Source: a virus (lineage: Duplodnaviria > Heunggongvirae > Uroviricota > Caudoviricetes). From it: DNA of 54,083 nt. The notes under the pieces were generated by a model. It did no database searches. It saw only the letters and a program-made list of their open reading frames with translations, and was not told the origin of the DNA. Every line of letters begins with the position of its first letter. Position 1 is the first letter of the stretch. The DNA lies in IMG/VR virus record IMGVR_UViG_2534682338_000012, positions 1 through 54,083 of that record. The stretch is one strand, 5' to 3'. The position numbers were made by a program, and so were the translations under genes. Shown here in pieces: positions 6,740 through 48,678 of the stretch.

Positions 6740-7414
6740 TTAGGCTTTGATTTTGTATCTTCTTGGTTTTCCTGAGAAAATCACTGTACCAATTATAGAG
6801 CAATTACCGTTGATCTTAATGTAAGGCTCAGGCCAGTTTGGGTTTAACGCTTTGAGATAACGCTGTGTCCCATCTTCTATTAACCTTTTGAAGGTGGTTT
6901 CACCTGTATCGTGCATCAATGCAATAACGTCGTCACCGTGGCAGGCAGGTACTTCAGGATCGACAAAAATCATGTCTCCCGGGCGGTACTCATCAATCAT
7001 TGAATCACCTATCACCCGCAAGATATAAGTCATTTCCCCACAGGGTACAGGGCAGGGATACGTTTCTGCTGTGCTCAAATCAACCTCAGAATATCCAACT
7101 TCTTTCCATGCTCCGGCCTGTACCCATGATATGACAGGGACTAATGTGATTTGTTTATTAGTGATTGAAACATCAGGTTTTTTTGTGATGTTCGTTGTCT
7201 GGTGTTCTTGATCGAGCCATCCGACAGGTAGGTCGAAACATTTTTCGATGTGTCGTGCCATGCTGTCACCGATATTTTTAGTAGCACCATCTCCCATAAA
7301 CCTGCTGGTCTGGGTTGGCTCGCGATCAATCATAGTGGCAAAGGAAGAATTCCCGCCAACACCATCTCTCAGTTTTCTGGCGTTAGACCGCCGGATGTCA
7401 TGGATTGTTTTCAT
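6740..7414 (-). CDS. cI: CI-like prophage repressor with LexA-like S24 peptidase domain
   Basis: 224 aa; N-terminal HTH region, C-terminal GDSM serine and downstream Lys typical of S24 autocleavage domain; divergent from cro. Confidence 0.9.
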   Translation of the reverse strand: MKTIHDIRRSNARKLRDGVGGNSSFATMIDREPTQTSRFMGDGATKNIGDSMARHIEKCFDLPVGWLDQEHQTTNITKKPDVSITNKQITLVPVISWVQAGAWKEVGYSEVDLSTAETYPCPVPCGEMTYILRVIGDSMIDEYRPGDMIFVDPEVPACHGDDVIALMHDTGETTFKRLIEDGTQRYLKALNPNWPEPYIKINGNCSIIGTVIFSGKPRRYKIKA

Positions 7415-35778: not shown

Positions 35779-36352
35779 CATCCGGCGCGGTACTGGTATC
35801 TGTTGCCGTCACCGCGTCAATGTAATCCAGCACAGTGTTAAGTCGGGTGGTCTCTGCCTGCATCAGCTTCCGCCCGGCCTGCAATTTCAGTTGAATCAGA
35901 CTAATGGAAGCCATTGCAGTATCAATCAGTGACTGACGTTGTGCTTCTGCCGCGTCTACTGCGGCGCTATGCTGTGTCTCAGTATCCGTCACCCATTTCT
36001 CACCATCCCATTTATCGTATGGCGTTAACGGGGCGATAGTGGTTGTTTTTTCGGGGTAATCACCCGGAGTTGTGATTTCTTTGGCGTCTCCCGTTTCGGT
36101 GTTATAGACGATTTCACCGCGATGGTCTGGTACATATTCCCATGAGTTAAAATCTGCAGAGCGGCAGATTGCATAACCAGCTTTGTAGGTGCCTGGAGCA
36201 TCTAAACAGGAATAAGCCGGAATGCCGACACCAACAGCAAGATATTCAGTTGAAGCTGAAATATACTCCCGACTCATGACGTCAAAGTTATAAACAGTAA
36301 TTTCTCCTGCCATAGTGGCAATTAATTCACTGTTTAATTCTGCGTTATTCAT
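35750..36352 (-). CDS. tail fibre assembly protein (for variant B)
   Basis: 200 aa, C-terminal LNTVLDYIDAVTATDTSTAPDVIWPELP Tfa signature, opposite strand within invertible segment. Confidence 0.7.
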   Translation of the reverse strand: MNNAELNSELIATMAGEITVYNFDVMSREYISASTEYLAVGVGIPAYSCLDAPGTYKAGYAICRSADFNSWEYVPDHRGEIVYNTETGDAKEITTPGDYPEKTTTIAPLTPYDKWDGEKWVTDTETQHSAAVDAAEAQRQSLIDTAMASISLIQLKLQAGRKLMQAETTRLNTVLDYIDAVTATDTSTAPDVIWPELPEE

Positions 36353-42019: not shown

Positions 42020-43210
42020 ATGATGCTGAATGCCCGCAAGGTTGAAGCTGCGAAAGGAAAAGAGAAGAGCTACAAGCTGTTTGATGGAGGTGGCCTATAC
42101 CTTCAGGTCGAACCTAATGGCTCGCGTTACTGGCGTATGAAATACCGTTTTGCTGGTAAAGAGAAACGATTGTCCTTTGGTGTTTATCCAACAGTCACAC
42201 TTGCTGATGCCAGACAAAAACGAGAAGACGCGAAGAAACTACTCGCAGCAGGTGAAGATCCCGGCGAAGTCAAAAAAGCCAAAAAGCAGGCTTTAAATGC
42301 AGCGATTGAGACACTTAACCCATTCAGAGAAGTGGCGTTAGAGTGGCACAAAATGAAATCACCCAAATGGTCTGAGGGCTATGCTTCCGACATCATTGAG
42401 GCATTCGAGAAAGACATTTTCCCGCATATTGGGCACAGACCTATAGCTGATATTCAGCCCCTTGAACTGCTTGAAGTTCTGAGGTTGATAGAAGCTCGAG
42501 GCGCTATGGAGAAAGCGAAGAAAGTCCGTCAGCGATGCGGTGAAGTTTTTCGCTATGCCATCGTAACGGGTAGGGCAATCTACAATCCGGCACCGGATCT
42601 TGCCAGTGCGATGCAAGGACATGAAGCAGTCCACTATCCATTCCTCAAAGCCAACGAACTACCGGAGTTCTTTAATGCCCTTAATTCTTATTCAGGAAGT
42701 CCAATTGTATTGTTGGGGGCGCATTTACTTATCCTGACAGGTCTACGAACTGGAGAACTACGAGCAGGTGAGTGGCGAGAGGTGGATTTTGATAATGCGG
42801 TGTGGGAGATCCCAAAAGAACGTATGAAAATGCGTAGGAGCCATATTGTCCCGTTGTCAAAACAAGCATTATCCCATCTCAAAAGTTTGAAAGAACTAAC
42901 TGGGAACTACCCGCTGATGTTCCCTGGACGCAACGATCCTAGCAAATTTATGAGTGAAGCAAGCATTAATCAGGTGTTTAAACGTATTGGATATGCAGGG
43001 CGTGTTACGGGGCATGGTTTCAGGCATACGATGAGTACAATCCTACATGAGAAAGGATTTAACAGCGCTTGGATTGAAACCCAGCTTGCTCATTCGGACA
43101 AAAACTCTATTCGTGGAATTTATAACCATGCCCAATATCTCGAAGGGAGAAGAGAAATGATGCAATGGTATGCTAATTATTTATCTGAGCTAATTGGTAC
43201 TCATAAATGA
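42020..43210 (+). CDS. P4-type tyrosine integrase
   Basis: N-terminal LNARKVEAAKGKEKSYKLFDGGGLYLQV (DUF4102-like arm-binding domain), C-terminal HGFRHT...Y catalytic region; track start is TTG, ATG chosen. Confidence 0.85.
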   Translation: MMLNARKVEAAKGKEKSYKLFDGGGLYLQVEPNGSRYWRMKYRFAGKEKRLSFGVYPTVTLADARQKREDAKKLLAAGEDPGEVKKAKKQALNAAIETLNPFREVALEWHKMKSPKWSEGYASDIIEAFEKDIFPHIGHRPIADIQPLELLEVLRLIEARGAMEKAKKVRQRCGEVFRYAIVTGRAIYNPAPDLASAMQGHEAVHYPFLKANELPEFFNALNSYSGSPIVLLGAHLLILTGLRTGELRAGEWREVDFDNAVWEIPKERMKMRRSHIVPLSKQALSHLKSLKELTGNYPLMFPGRNDPSKFMSEASINQVFKRIGYAGRVTGHGFRHTMSTILHEKGFNSAWIETQLAHSDKNSIRGIYNHAQYLEGRREMMQWYANYLSELIGTHK

Positions 43211-44031
43211 ATATTTTAAAAATTAATAATACTGATTCTCTGCTCAGAGATTACTACCAGTTGGATGAAGCTTCAGAAAAAATTGGTTGTAGTGAAAAGG
43301 ATATACTCTGGTTTGCCAGAGAACGAGATGTAGAGCTATGCATGGAATTCCATGATGATGAGTATGATGTTTCATGTGGTTTGAAGATTGATGGTCAAAT
43401 GGATGAGTTCTTATCTAATCTGAAATATTTACCACGAGATAGAAATGGCAATATTATGTTGTCAGACTTAAGTTCTATAAGAATCCCTGATGAAGATAAT
43501 TTAATTGATAAAAATGGTTTTATTCGATGTTTCATATCCGGTTTATGGGCTGTTGATTATGAATATAAAGATCTGTTAGTTAAGCATGAGGGGCAACCGG
43601 ATTCTTGGCCTATTCATTTTCTACTGGCGGGTACGCCTAATATAAATTGTAAGGTAATTCTTTATGTAAATTATGATGAAAAAGAAAATTATTATCTTTT
43701 TGAGGTTTTGTGGATTACAAAGGTACAGATTCAAAAATTCATTGATATAGTCTTATGCGAACAAAAGCGGATAAAAAACGCCAATAAATATAAATCACAA
43801 TCTGAGGCGCAAAAACAAAAACATGCTGTTCCTCGAGCTGAAATACTCATGGCTATTATTTCGCTCTATCATCGTGATATGAGGCTAAGAAGAGAGAGTC
43901 CAGCAGCGATAGCTGATTATCTTTTTCAACATGCCAGTGAGTTCTGGCCTAAGACCGGAGAACCGCCTTTGAGCTATGATACTGTTGTTAGTTTGCTACG
44001 TAGTTGCATGAAAAACATTAAGTTTAACTAA
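43207..44031 (+). CDS. hypothetical protein (274 aa), AT-rich
   Basis: Start overlaps integrase stop (ATGA), no recognisable domain. Confidence 0.5.
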   Translation: MNILKINNTDSLLRDYYQLDEASEKIGCSEKDILWFARERDVELCMEFHDDEYDVSCGLKIDGQMDEFLSNLKYLPRDRNGNIMLSDLSSIRIPDEDNLIDKNGFIRCFISGLWAVDYEYKDLLVKHEGQPDSWPIHFLLAGTPNINCKVILYVNYDEKENYYLFEVLWITKVQIQKFIDIVLCEQKRIKNANKYKSQSEAQKQKHAVPRAEILMAIISLYHRDMRLRRESPAAIADYLFQHASEFWPKTGEPPLSYDTVVSLLRSCMKNIKFN

Positions 44032-44156: not shown

Positions 44157-44447
44157 ATGTTATCTAAACATGATAATACTACTTTGCAACGACCTTCAAT
44201 GGATTCTCTGATCGATATGAAGTTTATTACTTCCGATTGTTTATTAAGTGATAAATGGATTTATCGATTGATTTCTCTGAATCGCTTTCCAAAACCTATA
44301 AAAATAGGTCGGATGTCACGATGGCGCGCTGCTGATTATTATAAGTGGCGAGATGGGTTTGAAGAAAACTCAGGTCAACATTTTGAGGGAATGAGAAATA
44401 AGGCAAGAGCAATTAATAAAGGGAATAGATTATCACCTACTCCCTAA
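44157..44447 (+). CDS. AlpA-family phage regulatory protein
   Basis: C-terminal region resembles AlpA HTH (RLISLNRFPKPIKIGRMSRWRAADYYKW); true start may be internal (~44217). Confidence 0.55.
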   Translation: MLSKHDNTTLQRPSMDSLIDMKFITSDCLLSDKWIYRLISLNRFPKPIKIGRMSRWRAADYYKWRDGFEENSGQHFEGMRNKARAINKGNRLSPTP

Positions 44448-44479
44448 GCCTTAATTGATAGTTAGTAATATTTAACTGA

Positions 44480-44653
44480 TTAGCCTTTAGGGTCAATCCC
44501 GCGTGATTGGAGTTCTTTGCGTAAAATTCTTTTAATCCAAGTTGCCAACGCGCTATCTCCATCTTTGCGCATTTCGTTTTCGAGTTGCAACCTAAAATCG
44601 TCGGTAAGACGCATTTGGAATGGTGGAGAACGTTTCTCTTGTGGTGTTGACAT
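44480..44653 (-). CDS. small ribbon-helix-helix-like protein (57 aa), not in ORF track
   Basis: Minus-strand ORF MSTPQEKRSPPFQMRLTDDFRLQLENEMRKDGDSALATWIKRILRKELQ...; beta-strand/helix/helix pattern; two copies of CATGGTAATTACC palindrome at and upstream of start. Confidence 0.4.
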   Translation of the reverse strand: MSTPQEKRSPPFQMRLTDDFRLQLENEMRKDGDSALATWIKRILRKELQSRGIDPKG

Positions 44654-44784
44654 GGTAATTACCCTAGAATATGATGACTACATGGTAATTACCATTGTAA
44701 GTATAGTTCGCTTGTAAAAGCAATGCCCGATTGTGCGGGAACACAAATCGGGCATTTAACCAACCGTTATAAGAGGTAACGAAG

Positions 44785-44961
44785 ATGGCTAAACAGAAGT
44801 GTACCTGGTTATTTGCGGCGATCAACCGCAGTCAACGCAATGCCCGTCCTGTGATGTTAAGGATCACCGCAGATAACGAGCGGTCAGCGCGGCGCAGACT
44901 TGCCCCGGACTATGTACTGAGCTTTGCCGGGCGCATTCCCTGCGGAGGTGAACATGCGTAA
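44785..44961 (+). CDS. small protein (58 aa), possibly Icd-like
   Basis: AAGAGG RBS; MAKQKCTWLFAAINRSQRNARPVMLRITADNERSARRRL...; translationally coupled to next gene; family assignment from memory, low certainty. Confidence 0.35.
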   Translation: MAKQKCTWLFAAINRSQRNARPVMLRITADNERSARRRLAPDYVLSFAGRIPCGGEHA

Positions 44962-46009: not shown

Positions 46010-48678
46010 CAATACGGACGGTTACGCAGATTTCAGCCGCCGCACGGGGGAAATGGCCCGTTATTCTGCAGATGCTGCGTATTGATGTACCTGAAAACGG
46101 CAGGCACGGTCCCTGCCCGAAATGTGGGGGCAAGGATCGTTTTCGCCTTGATGACCTTGACGGGCGCGGGACGTGGATCTGCAGCCAGTGTGGCAATGGT
46201 GACGGTCTGGATCTGGTTAAGCTCGTAACCGGTTACAGCGTCAGAAAGGCTGCGCAGGAGGTGGCGCAGGTGCTTAATGTGCCGGATGTGCAGGAACTGC
46301 CTGTTAAGCCTGCCAGACAAAAAGCCCCTAAACGAGACATGGGTCTTACCGTGGCGGCGCTGATGAAAGAGAGCCACACGGGAGAAAGCGCCTATCTGAC
46401 AGGAAAAGGGTTCGCCGGATACCCGGCCTCTCTGACCGGAAGCGTGCAGCATATCAGCGGTAAGGATTTTCCTGCCGGTTCCCTGCTGTTACCACTCACG
46501 ACCAACACCGGAGCCGTGACCGGTGCACAGCTTATCGCCCCGACGGGTGAAAAAAGCATACTGCCCGGCAGCACGATGAAAGGCGCGTTTGTGTCGCTCA
46601 GCCCGTTACCGTCTGAACCACCGGTACAGGTGGTGATTACCGAAGGTTACGCTACGGCGCTGACGGTAAGCCAGCTCACTGCCGGATGCGTAGTGGCTGC
46701 CATATCTGCGGGCAACCTGCCCAATGTGGCGCAGTCGCTGCGGGCACGCTGGCCTGAGGTAAAAATTATCATCGCCGGTGATAACGATTTTCAGGACGGG
46801 GGTGAGAATCCCGGCAGAGCCTTTGCTGAACGGGCGGCAAAAGCTGTTGGCGGCTGGATGACGCTGCCACCAGGAGAGATTAAGGCTGACTGGAATGACT
46901 TTCATCGGGAGCACGGTATTACCCGTGCCCGTGAAGCCTTTCGCAACGGTCTGGTACTGTGCGGGGAAGGCCGCACGCAACTGCCGCACGGGTTCCGTCT
47001 TACCCAGGAATATCTCTGGTATGAAAAGCAGGTACAGCGCAACGGTGAGACGGAGATCCAGAACGTCAAAATATGCAGCCCGCTGCGCGTGACGGCAATT
47101 ACCTGCGATGCCGATGGCGGTAACTTCGGACGACTGCTGGAATGGGAAGATACGTGGGGTGAGTGTCGCCGCTGGGCGATGCCAATGGAAATGCTGAGCG
47201 GCAGTGGTGAGGAACTGCGCCGGGTTCTGCTGGTTAACGGGCTGTCTTATATCAGCACCACCGGTGAGGCACGCGCACGCCTGATGGAATATATCTCACT
47301 GTGTAAACCGGAACGCCGCGTGACCTGCGTCAGTCGTACTGGCTGGCATGGTCAGGTTTACGTCCTGCAGGATGAGGTCAGCGGTGAAGGTGCAGAGGGT
47401 GTCATTCTCCAGACCACTTCCGTGCAGGGGCGTGATTTCCGCGTGTCGGGCACAACAGAGGAATGGCGGGAGCATGTATCCCGCTACTGTACCGGCAACT
47501 CCCGCGTGGCATTTGCTGTCAGCCTGGCCTTTGCTGCACCACTGTTACGGCTGGTTGGTATGGACGGCGGCGGCTACCACCTCAAAGGGGAATCGACAGA
47601 CGGTAAGACCACCACCATGAAAGCGGCAACCTCCGTCTGCGGCGGGCCTGACTACTGGCAGACATGGCGGGCCACCGGCAACGCGCTGGAGGGATGCGCC
47701 AGCCGCCGTAACGATGCCGCCATGATGCTTGATGAGATCCGGGAAGTTGACGGACGCGAGGCAGGCAATATCGCCTACATGCTGGCAAACGGTCAGGGCA
47801 AGGGCCGTGCCGGTACGGACGGTGAGCTGCGTACCCGTAAGCAGTGGCGCCTGTTGTTCTTTTCAACTGGCGAGTTGTCTCTGACCGAACATGCGGCAAA
47901 GGCCGGTGAGCGTACTTTTGCCGGGATGGAAGTCAGGATGATCCAGATCCCCAGCGATTCCGGGAAGTTTGGCGTTTTTGAGGAGCTGCACGGCTTCGAC
48001 AGCGGCAAGGCTCTGGCAGAGCATCTTGAATGGGCCACGTCCTGCTACTACGGTTCGCCGTTCCGGGAGTGGCTGAAAGCACTGACCGCTGATCTTAACG
48101 GACTAACGGCACAGGCAAAATCGCTGATGAAGGAATATGCTGCCGCCCTGACTCCGAAAGATGCAGGCAATCAGGTGGGCCGGGCTGTGAACCGCTTTGC
48201 ACTGGTGGCGATGGCAGGTGAACTGGCAACCCGTCTGGGTATCACCGGCTGGCCTGAGGGTGAAGCACTGCGGGCAACCCGCGTCTGCCTGAACGCATGG
48301 CTGAAAGATCGCGGGCACACCGCCAATCAGGAAGATATCGCCGCACTGGAGCAGGTTCGCAGTTTCTTTACCGCGAATCAGTACAGCCGCTTTGCAGACT
48401 GGTATGACGAGCGCAACCGCCCCGGCAATATGGTGGGCTGGCGCAGGGTGGAGAAAGGCAGTACCGCGCAGGGCACGGAAGCTGTCACTACGTTCTATGT
48501 CATGCCGTCCGGCTGGAAAGAAATCTGCAGGGGATTTGACCCGCGCAAGGTGGCGCGTCTGTGCGCAGATCGTGGATACCTGCTGCCCTCCACTGATGGC
48601 AAACTCCAGACAACCATTCGCCCGCCAGAGATGAATCCCCGCAGGCTCTATGTCTTCAACAGCGAGGTGCCGGGTTAA
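46006..48678 (+). CDS. P4 alpha-like primase-helicase
   Basis: 890 aa; N-terminal zinc-binding CPKCGG...CSQCGNGDG, TOPRIM-like acidic region, central P-loop (GESTDGKT) helicase region. Confidence 0.85.
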   Translation: MTIRTVTQISAAARGKWPVILQMLRIDVPENGRHGPCPKCGGKDRFRLDDLDGRGTWICSQCGNGDGLDLVKLVTGYSVRKAAQEVAQVLNVPDVQELPVKPARQKAPKRDMGLTVAALMKESHTGESAYLTGKGFAGYPASLTGSVQHISGKDFPAGSLLLPLTTNTGAVTGAQLIAPTGEKSILPGSTMKGAFVSLSPLPSEPPVQVVITEGYATALTVSQLTAGCVVAAISAGNLPNVAQSLRARWPEVKIIIAGDNDFQDGGENPGRAFAERAAKAVGGWMTLPPGEIKADWNDFHREHGITRAREAFRNGLVLCGEGRTQLPHGFRLTQEYLWYEKQVQRNGETEIQNVKICSPLRVTAITCDADGGNFGRLLEWEDTWGECRRWAMPMEMLSGSGEELRRVLLVNGLSYISTTGEARARLMEYISLCKPERRVTCVSRTGWHGQVYVLQDEVSGEGAEGVILQTTSVQGRDFRVSGTTEEWREHVSRYCTGNSRVAFAVSLAFAAPLLRLVGMDGGGYHLKGESTDGKTTTMKAATSVCGGPDYWQTWRATGNALEGCASRRNDAAMMLDEIREVDGREAGNIAYMLANGQGKGRAGTDGELRTRKQWRLLFFSTGELSLTEHAAKAGERTFAGMEVRMIQIPSDSGKFGVFEELHGFDSGKALAEHLEWATSCYYGSPFREWLKALTADLNGLTAQAKSLMKEYAAALTPKDAGNQVGRAVNRFALVAMAGELATRLGITGWPEGEALRATRVCLNAWLKDRGHTANQEDIAALEQVRSFFTANQYSRFADWYDERNRPGNMVGWRRVEKGSTAQGTEAVTTFYVMPSGWKEICRGFDPRKVARLCADRGYLLPSTDGKLQTTIRPPEMNPRRLYVFNSEVPG

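What the first reader, a model, noticed from the sequence alone, without database searches (positions are those of the whole stretch)
44480..44700. Unannotated small RHH-like gene with twin palindromic operators
A 57-aa minus-strand ORF, below the ORF-track size cutoff, has the beta-alpha-alpha pattern of ribbon-helix-helix repressors. Its start region contains two copies of CATGGTAATTACC (palindromic core GGTAATTACC) ~30 bp apart, typical of an autoregulated operator. It may act as the immunity or maintenance repressor of the P4-like element or as an orphan antitoxin.
Basis: seen in the sequence. Interest (0 to 1): 0.4.

Follow-up and report, generated by a model that had tools for sequence, protein, structure and literature searches.

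The report
Small repressor gene guarding a satellite's early promoter
A real, strongly conserved 57-residue ribbon-helix-helix protein sits on top of the early promoter of a P4-like phage satellite with two matching palindromes, and together with a neighbouring antisense RNA it most likely keeps the satellite's replication genes switched off.

Summary
A 57-aa ORF lies at 44480-44653 (-). Two exact GGTAATTACC palindromes lie at 44654-63 and 44684-93, the only exact copies in 54 kb.

The palindromes bracket a near-consensus + strand promoter (TTGACA-17-TATGAT). Its -35 box is the gene's own first codons. One palindrome fills the spacer and the other covers the predicted start. This promoter would drive the Icd-like-to-primase operon.

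The layout is conserved across Enterobacterales, Pasteurellaceae, Orbaceae and Aeromonadales. Palindrome sequence changes together with the protein's N-terminal strand, whatever the flanking genes are.

Between operators and the first early gene lies a conserved 75-nt SymR-like antisense RNA covering that gene's ribosome site. P4's own RNA immunity elements (C4, IsrK) are absent.

Best reading: an Arc/Mnt-style repressor of the satellite's early operon, also autoregulated. This is a new family of a known kind. DNA binding is untested. The orphan-antitoxin reading is not supported.

The parts
44480..44653 (-). 57-aa ribbon-helix-helix (Arc-like) repressor gene. Predicted strand about residues 10-16 (PPFQMRL), helix 18-31, turn D31-G32-D33-S34, helix 36-50.
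44654..44663 (.). O1: palindrome GGTAATTACC. It abuts the repressor's ATG and fills the spacer of the + strand early promoter.
   Evidence: A palindrome abutting or within 1 nt of the start codon in nearly all related loci, and the more conserved of the two sites.
44684..44693 (.). O2: second GGTAATTACC, 30 bp from O1. It covers about +2 to +11 of the early promoter and the predicted start of the repressor's own promoter.
   Evidence: Conserved position 27-35 bp from O1 (mostly 30-31), and often a weaker variant such as GGTCATTACC or GGTCGTTACC.
44647..44675 (+). Early promoter P_R: TTGACA (44647-52), 17-nt spacer, TATGAT (44670-75). Predicted start near 44682. The -35 box is the reverse complement of codons 1-2 of the repressor gene (ATG TCA A).
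   Evidence: 11 of 12 consensus match. TTGACA present in nearly all loci; spacer 16-18 nt and -10 box matching 4-5 of 6 in most related loci.
44694..44699 (-). Candidate -10 box (TACAAT) of the repressor's own promoter, abutting O2. Its -35 is poor (TTGCTT).
   Evidence: Read from the sequence. A TAnnnT hexamer directly upstream of O2 recurs in most loci. The promoter scan did not report it because of the weak -35.
44716..44790 (-). Predicted 75-nt SymR-like cis-antisense RNA. Its 5' end is complementary to the Icd-like start codon, the hairpin-1 loop carries CCUC (anti-Shine-Dalgarno), and hairpin 2 plus a U run forms the terminator.
   Evidence: Rfam symR 31.6 bits, below the gathering score of 61. 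Structure on a 33-locus alignment: 93.6% of cells paired, 15 pairs with compensatory changes, 0 of 500 shuffles as good. 95 G-U cells on this strand against 10 on the other. MFE z-score -5.4. My model R1 hits K-12 symR exactly.
44798..44825 (-). Candidate promoter of the antisense RNA: TTGATC (44825-20), 16-nt spacer, TACACT (44803-44798). It lies inside the first codons of the Icd-like gene.
   Evidence: A TAnnnT hexamer ending 7 nt upstream of AGCCAT is the best-scoring -10 in about three quarters of 42 distinct loci, although the overlapped first genes are not homologous.
44785..44961 (+). Icd-like cell-division-inhibitor gene, the first gene of the early operon controlled by P_R. It is followed by two hypothetical genes, DUF5375 and the primase.
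   Evidence: NCBIfam NF033153, E 5.5e-24. RefSeq annotation.
44420..44445 (-). Weak terminator-like hairpin 35 nt downstream of the repressor stop codon, inside the 3' end of the convergent AlpA-like gene.
   Evidence: 11 pairs, of which 4 are G-C.
44157..44447 (+). AlpA/Vis-like helix-turn-helix gene, convergent with the repressor gene. No + strand terminator separates it from P_R.
   Evidence: Pfam Phage_AlpA E 4e-4. PHROG excisionase/regulator. Terminator scan.

Best explanation
The ORF encodes a small dimeric ribbon-helix-helix DNA-binding protein that acts as the transcriptional repressor of the satellite's early (replication) operon.

Proposed mechanism:
- Each 10-bp palindrome is bound by one dimer, through the N-terminal two-stranded sheet inserted in the major groove.
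- O1 lies in the spacer of the near-consensus promoter P_R, so occupancy blocks RNA polymerase.
- O2 covers the P_R start and also the start of the repressor's own weak promoter, which fires in the opposite direction through P_R. Occupancy of O2 gives autoregulation.
- The two sites are about three helical turns apart, on the same face of the DNA, which would allow cooperative binding.
- A second layer is a constitutive SymR-like antisense RNA. It pairs with the leader, ribosome-binding site and start codon of the first early gene (Icd-like) and silences transcripts that escape.

Together these keep the Icd-like division inhibitor and the primase off in the integrated state. They replace the C4/IsrK RNA immunity of phage P4.

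What is shown: the gene is real, the fold is RHH-like, and the promoter/operator/RNA layout is conserved and covaries. What is inferred: binding, repression, cooperativity, and the way a helper phage lifts repression. One possibility is read-through from the AlpA-like gene running antisense across the repressor gene.
For: The gene is real and under purifying selection.
- 85 homologues, nearly all 54-62 aa.
- 68 loci in one-genome-per-species data.
- Median dN/dS 0.096; 0.047/0.568 against Citrobacter.

The fold is RHH-like.
- The AF2 model has pLDDT 75, with an extended N-terminus, H18-31 and H36-50.
- Pfam Arc is sub-threshold in 15 of 43 members, best E 1.5e-4. PHROG 228 'Arc-like repressor' gives E 0.003.
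- D31 and G32 are invariant at the inter-helix turn.

The promoter and operator geometry fits repression.
- P_R is TTGACA-17-TATGAT, 11 of 12 matches, with O1 in the spacer and O2 at about +2 to +11.
- TTGACA is embedded in ATG TCA A in nearly all loci, and the spacer and -10 box are conserved in most.

Operator class tracks the protein's N-terminal strand class.
- GGTAATTACC goes with RSP[PQ][FY]QMRL, GGTATATACC with SPQFPMRL, TGTAATTACA with KTDQYQ[IL]RL and similar, and GTGTAATTACAC with NPPFQFRL.
- L060 and L061 keep an early operon 98-100% identical in protein to the window's, yet have a 54%-identical repressor and different operators.
- L039 keeps a window-like integrase and AlpA but has the TGTAATTACA class.

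Context.
- The gene always faces away from, and its start abuts, the primase-containing operon of integrase-bearing elements.
- C4 and IsrK are absent here but are detected in P4 itself as a positive control.
- The antisense RNA is supported.
Against: No binding or expression data exist.
- The window protein itself reaches no curated family threshold.
- The PDB sequence profile search finds no RHH protein at a significant E-value.
- The monomer model shows no DSSP strand. An RHH strand needs the dimer partner.

The covariation rests on only about four or five independent operator-class transitions, and it is confounded by phylogeny. Pmp8 has one GGTATATACC site although its protein carries Q13.

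The repressor's own promoter has a poor -35 box and was not found by the scan.

In L060 and L061 the swapped segment also includes the integrase side. That case alone therefore does not isolate the repressor as the binder.
Confidence: 0.7

Rival explanations
1. The module is chiefly an addiction or toxin-control device. The Icd-like division inhibitor is the toxin, and the SymR-like RNA (a type I style antitoxin) together with the RHH protein keeps it off. The purpose would be stabilising the island rather than governing the satellite's life cycle.
Against: In many loci the first gene downstream of the same repressor, operators and RNA is not Icd-like, whereas the operon regularly contains the primase or replication genes. 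The RNA and the operators are conserved independently of the first gene's identity.
Confidence: 0.12
2. Orphan type II antitoxin: the RHH domain autoregulates only its own promoter and neutralises a toxin encoded elsewhere.
For: The RHH fold is shared with many antitoxins such as TacA2, MazE9 and VapB12. JGI named some homologues 'HicB family'.
Against: No co-directional downstream gene exists. The next gene is convergent: AlpA-like here, an integrase in Pectobacterium. Only about 7 residues follow helix 2, so there is no toxin-binding tail. The operators sit in and on a strong opposing promoter, not only the gene's own.
Confidence: 0.04
3. The palindromes are sites for another protein, such as the AlpA-like regulator, the integrase or a host factor. 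The small ORF would then have an unrelated role.
For: No binding data exist. AlpA-type proteins also bind repeats near promoters. AlpA is reported to activate the downstream genes in EcCICFT073 (PMC6092414).
Against: The palindrome class follows the small protein's N-terminal class, not the integrase/AlpA type (L039) and not the early-operon type (L060, L061). Pectobacterium loci, in which the AlpA query finds no match, keep the twin palindromes.
Confidence: 0.06
4. A ParG/omega-like centromere-binding protein that serves plasmid-state maintenance of the satellite.
For: P4 can be maintained as a plasmid (established knowledge). ParG and omega are RHH proteins that bind repeats.
Against: No ParA-type partner gene is present. 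There are only two sites, and both are placed precisely on promoter elements.
Confidence: 0.02

Closest known systems
Phage P22 immunity I region (Mnt and Arc ribbon-helix-helix repressors plus the sar antisense RNA, controlling ant)
   Same: A small RHH repressor gene is read in the opposite direction to the operon it controls. The operators sit on overlapping promoters. A short cis-antisense RNA covers the ribosome-binding region of the controlled gene. P22 immI composition is taken from PMC2629481; the operator details are from my own knowledge.
   Different: No detectable sequence homology to Arc or Mnt: Pfam Arc is only sub-threshold and no PDB sequence hit appears. The operators here are two separate 10-bp palindromes 30 bp apart, rather than one 21-bp operator bound by a tetramer. 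The target is a satellite replication operon beginning with an Icd-like gene, not an antirepressor. The RNA resembles SymR, not sar.
Phage P4 immunity (CI RNA = Rfam C4, seqA = Rfam isrK, premature termination of the P_LE transcript)
   Same: Same position in a P4-like genome, between the vis/alpA-type gene and the operon ending in ORF106 (DUF5375) and the alpha primase. Presumably the same job, keeping the early/replication operon silent (PMC3632133).
   Different: C4, isrK and c4-a1b1 are found in P4 but not here. P4 has no homologue of the antisense RNA, and its annotation lists no small leftward repressor gene in this region. Control here would act at transcription initiation through a protein, plus translation through a cis-antisense RNA, rather than through a trans-acting processed RNA.
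SymE/SymR of E. coli K-12 (Rfam RF01809)
   Same: An RNA of about 75 nt starts a few bases inside the target ORF and is complementary to its start codon and Shine-Dalgarno sequence. Both have a two-hairpin architecture with a GUGUU...GCAC top. The similarity is reciprocal: Rfam symR hits the window at 31.6 bits, and my model hits K-12 symR exactly at 34.3 bits, E 2.7e-6.
   Different: The score is below Rfam's gathering threshold of 61. The target is an Icd-like or other early gene, not SymE. The RNA is paired with an RHH repressor and lies in a mobile element. K-12 symER has no such protein gene next to it.
Stl/Rpr master repressors of Gram-positive phage-inducible chromosomal islands
   Same: A repressor gene is transcribed away from the excision/replication operon at the integrase-proximal end of a phage satellite (PMC6092414).
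   Different: Stl/Rpr proteins are larger and, to my knowledge, helix-turn-helix proteins. They sit on the integrase strand and are relieved by helper-phage proteins. None of this has been tested here. [quoted passage not shown]

Membership tests
Ribbon-helix-helix (MetJ/Arc) superfamily | Strand-helix-helix topology in about 45 residues | tested here: met
Ribbon-helix-helix (MetJ/Arc) superfamily | Conserved glycine-containing turn (G-x-S/T/N) between the helices | tested here: met
   D31-G32-D33-S34 in the window protein. D31 and G32 are invariant and D33 is at least 90% conserved across 43 sequences.
Ribbon-helix-helix (MetJ/Arc) superfamily | Obligate dimer formed by an antiparallel two-stranded sheet that reads the major groove | not testable with these tools
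   Only monomer prediction was available.
Pfam Arc (PF03869) | Score at or above the gathering threshold | tested here: not met
   The window protein gives no hit. Fifteen of 43 family members give sub-threshold hits, best E 1.5e-4. NCBIfam gives nothing.
Autoregulated operator-binding repressor | Repeated or palindromic sites placed on promoter elements, conserved with the gene | tested here: met
Autoregulated operator-binding repressor | Specific binding of the protein to those sites, and repression | not testable with these tools
   Requires EMSA or footprinting and reporter assays. The only indirect support is the operator/strand co-variation.
Type II antitoxin (RHH class) | Co-transcribed adjacent toxin gene | tested here: not met
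   The gene is monocistronic and the next gene is convergent, both in the window and in related loci.
Type II antitoxin (RHH class) | C-terminal toxin-binding extension | tested here: not met
   Helix 2 ends at residue 50 of 57.
P4-type RNA immunity (C4/CI RNA with isrK/seqA) | Rfam C4 and isrK matches in the early leader | tested here: not met
   None at E up to 1-10 in the window. P4, the positive control, gives 74.9 and 60.8 bits.
SymR (RF01809), for the neighbouring RNA | Rfam gathering score of 61 bits | tested here: not met
   31.6 bits. The reciprocal hit of my model on K-12 symR, 34.3 bits at E 2.7e-6, suggests a relative rather than a member.
P4-like satellite (context of the gene) | Integrase, AlpA/Vis-like gene, alpha-type primase, ORF106/DUF5375, psu, sid and delta | tested here: met
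   RefSeq annotation of the identical element at tRNA-Thr. DUF5375 hit. The gene set matches that of P4.

The most novel reading that the evidence does not exclude
This small repressor, its twin operators and the SymR-like antisense RNA together form the so-far undescribed master off-switch of many Gram-negative phage satellites, both P4-like elements lacking C4/IsrK and PICIs. It would be exchangeable as an immunity cassette: EcCICFT073 carries a different small protein and different twin repeats at the same place, with the same RNA. Induction would work by helper-triggered transcription from the AlpA-like gene running antisense across the repressor gene into the early operon.
Probability: 0.35. 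Interest if true: 0.7.

Novelty: new member of a known kind. Interest (0 to 1): 0.5.

Why it matters
Fillol-Salom et al. 2018 (PMC6092414) state that it is unclear whether Gram-negative phage-inducible islands have a global repressor. Classical P4 uses an RNA-only immunity system.

This gene family gives a concrete and easily testable candidate for what keeps such satellites silent.
- It has no curated model.
- It is annotated as hypothetical, or missed altogether (as in O157:H7 TW14359).
- Its region matches 715 of 5,426 complete E. coli genomes, 443 of them over most of its length.

The palindrome classes also offer a natural specificity series for RHH-DNA recognition. The linked SymR-like RNA hints at where the chromosomal symER module came from.

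Tried and rejected
Curated family searches found nothing usable.
- Pfam and NCBIfam gave no hit for the window protein.
- PDB sequence searches with the single protein and with the family profile returned only designed helical repeats and noise. AmrZ appeared at E 0.6.
- Foldseek against the PDB was not significant, although NikR came top.

Other leads that gave nothing:
- DNA similarity to phage records found only Pasteurella 'phage' Pmp8, and P4 does not match. A protein-level search of phage records gave 4 records.
- I looked for a P4 CI/C4-IsrK RNA in the leader. It is absent, although detectable in P4.
- I considered that the conserved hairpin lies on the + strand, as a leader or CI-like RNA. 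Rejected: 95 G-U cells against 10 favour the minus strand, and a U run follows only there.
- The overlapping ORFs (66 aa on the + strand at 44517-44717; 41 aa on the - strand at 44437-44562) were not pursued, because the 57-aa frame shows dN/dS of about 0.1.
- hhalign of the family against the EcCICFT073 YlcI/YnfO-like protein was not significant.
- Literature searches for 'P4-like' with 'ribbon-helix-helix', 'Icd-like' with 'antisense RNA', and 'SymR' with 'satellite' found no relevant paper in the held library. This is not proof that none exists.

Full report
**Observation**

The 57-aa ORF is at 44480..44653 on the minus strand. The string ACATGGTAATTACC occurs twice, at 44650-63 and 44680-93. 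The perfect 10-bp palindromes GGTAATTACC lie at 44654-63 (O1) and 44684-93 (O2), 30 bp centre to centre. They are the only exact copies in 54 kb, and no shuffle reaches the observed count of near-matches.

**Setting**

The identical sequence is found in E. coli chromosomes next to tRNA-Thr. The RefSeq gene order there is:
- integrase, then a hypothetical gene;
- an AlpA-like helix-turn-helix gene (+);
- this ORF (-), annotated as hypothetical protein WP_001605077.1;
- an Icd-like gene (+), two hypothetical genes, DUF5375 and a TOPRIM/DUF927 primase;
- two psu-family genes and an ogr/delta-family gene;
- cargo genes.

This is the gene set of phage P4: int, ORF88/vis, ORF106 (= DUF5375), alpha, sid, delta and psu. 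The element is therefore a P4-like satellite. The gene lies between the integration module and the early/replication operon.

**Is it a gene?**

- A protein search returned 85 relatives, nearly all 54-62 aa. They come from Enterobacterales, Pasteurellaceae, Orbaceae (Gilliamella) and Aeromonadales, and are mostly unnamed. A few are called 'Arc family DNA-binding protein'.
- In a one-genome-per-species collection, 68 loci encode it.
- Pairwise NG86 estimates give a median dN/dS of 0.096. Against Citrobacter, dN is 0.047 and dS is 0.568.

It is a protein-coding gene under strong purifying selection.

**Fold**

Pfam and NCBIfam give no hit for the window protein. The weaker evidence all points the same way:
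- PHROG 228 'Arc-like repressor' scores E 0.003.
- Fifteen of 43 family members hit Pfam Arc below threshold, best E 1.5e-4, and NikA-like and MobC_2 (to my knowledge also RHH families) appear among the weak hits.
- The AlphaFold2 model (pLDDT 75) has an extended N-terminus and helices at 18-31 and 36-50.
- By eye, P10-P-F-Q-M-R-L16 aligns with Arc's P8-Q-F-N-L-R-W14. This would put residues 11, 13 and 15 towards the DNA. The Arc sequence is from my own knowledge and was not tested here.
- The D31-G32-D33-S34 turn is conserved.

I take the RHH assignment as well supported, though not proven.

**What the palindromes sit on**

The promoter scan finds TTGACA (44647-52), a 17-nt spacer and TATGAT (44670-75) on the + strand. 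At 11 of 12 matches it is the best site in the region.
- Its -35 box is the reverse complement of the repressor's first codons (ATG TCA A).
- O1 fills the spacer.
- O2 spans about +2 to +11.

This promoter (P_R) points into the Icd-like-to-primase operon.

On the minus strand, TACAAT (44699-44694) abuts O2. A start inside O2 would therefore give the repressor mRNA, which must run through P_R. The two promoters face each other and overlap.

This geometry predicts three things. Binding at O1 should repress P_R. Binding at O2 should autoregulate. Shutting off P_R may relieve occlusion of the weak repressor promoter.

**Comparative test**

I anchored every locus on the start codon. The following are conserved:
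- TTGACA embedded in the start codon, present in nearly all loci;
- a 16-18-nt spacer holding a 10-bp palindrome;
- a -10 box matching 4-5 of 6 positions in most loci;
- a second palindrome 27-35 bp away, mostly 30-31 bp;
- a TAnnnT hexamer directly upstream of that second palindrome.

The palindrome sequence changes by clade, together with the protein's N-terminal arm and strand:

| Operator class | N-terminal motif |
|---|---|
| GGTAATTACC | RSP[PQ][FY]QMRL |
| GGTATATACC | SPQFPMRL |
| TGTAATTACA | KTDQYQ[IL]RL and KS[QT]QYQ[IL]RL |
| GTGTAATTACAC | NPPFQFRL |

In my tally of the table, the outer base pair (G...C or T/A...A) sorts perfectly with Met versus Ile/Leu/Phe at position 14: 24 distinct loci against 14. 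These loci are not phylogenetically independent, and I count only four or five transitions.

The operator class follows the repressor and not the neighbours.
- L060 and L061 have early-operon proteins 98-100% identical to the window's. Their repressor is only 54% identical and their operators differ.
- L039 has a window-like integrase and AlpA but the TGTAATTACA class.
- In Pectobacterium loci the repressor is followed directly by a convergent integrase, with no match to the AlpA query, yet the twin sites remain.

The same family with the same CATGGTAATTACC pair is present in an O157:H7 island at pepT/roxA. It is also in the 15-kb 'Pasteurella phage Pmp8' record, which carries capsid and terminase genes. 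The module is therefore not restricted to P4-like elements.

**A second regulator next door**

Between O2 and the Icd-like start codon lies an element conserved on the repressor's strand. It reads AGCCAU (complement of the first gene's AUGGCU), then hairpin 1 with a CCUC loop, then UGGUYAGA, then hairpin 2 with a GUGYU...RCAC top, then a U run.

| Test | Result |
|---|---|
| Pairing on a 33-locus alignment | 93.6% of cells paired |
| Pairs with compensatory change | 15 |
| Shuffles doing as well | 0 of 500 |
| Pairing in slid controls | 36-51% |
| G-U cells, this strand vs the other | 95 vs 10 |
| Fold of the 75-nt window RNA (44790..44716) | -28.5 kcal/mol, z -5.4 |

A TAnnnT hexamer ending 7 nt upstream of AGCCAU is the best-scoring -10 box in about three quarters of 42 distinct loci, although the overlapped first genes are unrelated.

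Rfam's symR model matches at 31.6 bits, against a gathering score of 61. A covariance model built from these loci hits K-12 symR exactly, at 34.3 bits and E 2.7e-6.

I read this as a SymR-like cis-antisense RNA that blocks translation of the first early gene. The same RNA is present in the O157 island and in the model island EcCICFT073.

**Comparison with P4**

P4 itself gives C4, isrK and c4-a1b1 matches in its early leader, as described in PMC3632133 and PMC10111431. The window gives none. My RNA model finds nothing in P4.

This P4-like element therefore carries a different immunity region: a protein repressor and a cis-antisense RNA in place of the CI/seqA RNA system.

**EcCICFT073**

At the equivalent place EcCICFT073 has a different 59-aa leftward gene of the 'YlcI/YnfO family'. 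It also has twin direct repeats, GTGGGCCACACCT, 23 bp apart, bracketing TTGACG-18-TATAGT. The same antisense RNA and an Icd-like gene follow. hhalign does not link the two small proteins.

This looks like an exchangeable cassette with a constant architecture. PMC6092414 says a global repressor of Gram-negative islands is unclear, and shows that AlpA activates the downstream genes.

In the window no + strand terminator lies between the AlpA-like stop codon and P_R. AlpA-driven read-through would therefore run antisense over the repressor gene and into the early operon. This is an idea, not a result.

**Rivals**

- An orphan antitoxin is unlikely. The gene is monocistronic, the next gene is convergent, and there is no C-terminal tail.
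- A toxin-control (addiction) role for the Icd-like/RNA pair is possible as a side function. The module, however, persists where the first gene is not Icd-like.
- Another protein binding the palindromes is disfavoured by the co-variation.
- A partition role lacks a ParA partner.

**Verdict**

It is an uncharacterised family of a well-known kind of regulator, closest in logic to P22 immI, where Mnt and Arc act together with sar (PMC2629481). Here it is placed as the probable off-switch of a phage satellite. I found no description of it in the searchable literature. DNA binding and repression remain to be shown.

Noticed in passing
window 44716-44790 (-), promoter 44798-44825 (-): A conserved 75-nt SymR-like cis-antisense RNA overlaps the Shine-Dalgarno sequence and start codon of the Icd-like gene. 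The similarity to K-12 SymR is reciprocal, and pairing covaries strongly across 33 loci. It is also present in EcCICFT073 and in an O157:H7 island, but absent from P4.
   Followed up: yes
L073 (E. coli CFT073 NC_004431.1) 474-855: The model island EcCICFT073 has a different 59-aa 'YlcI/YnfO family' gene at the same place. Twin GTGGGCCACACCT repeats (L073 720-732 and 743-755) bracket a TTGACG-18-TATAGT promoter, followed by the same antisense RNA and an Icd-like gene. The architecture is the same but the cassette differs.
   Followed up: partly
L072 (E. coli O157:H7 TW14359 NC_013008.1) 7001-7174 (-): The homologous 57-aa gene, with identical twin CATGGTAATTACC sites, is not annotated in RefSeq. 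An apparently spurious + strand 'Icd-like pseudogene' call (L072 6558-7151) overlaps most of it.
   Followed up: partly
window 44751-44764; L060, L061: DNA homology of 93% to islands of Pantoea stewartii and Enterobacter soli stops inside the antisense RNA gene. Everything from hairpin 2 through the operators, the repressor and the integrase side is replaced. This marks a recombination junction at the regulatory RNA.
   Followed up: partly
L070 (OR544139.1, 'Pasteurella phage Pmp8'): This 15-kb record, deposited as a phage, has an integrase remnant, a primase and a head/terminase module but few tail genes, so it looks like a capsid-forming island. It carries this repressor family with mixed operators, GGTAATTACC and GGTATATACC.
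   Followed up: partly
window 46632-46641 and 47094-47103: Two one-mismatch copies of the palindrome (GGTGATTACC and GGCAATTACC) lie inside the primase gene. Two more lie outside the element at 36055 and 36471. Altogether this is more than shuffles give, but their significance is unknown.
   Followed up: no
window 43207-44031 versus L001 7331-8932: The 274-aa ORF between the integrase and the AlpA-like gene is intact in the window. In strain VG12A2 an IS1A element interrupts it.
   Followed up: no
L065-L069 (Photorhabdus); protein P0085: Decayed copies of the gene exist. Several Photorhabdus species carry 27-aa C-terminal remnants, and one variant is frameshifted so that the N-terminus is fused to another frame.
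   Followed up: no
L001 16079-18901 (downstream of the delta-like gene in the same element): The cargo genes after the ogr/delta gene encode SMEK-domain and DUF2326 proteins. They sit at the position where P4-like satellites are reported to carry defence hotspots.
   Followed up: no
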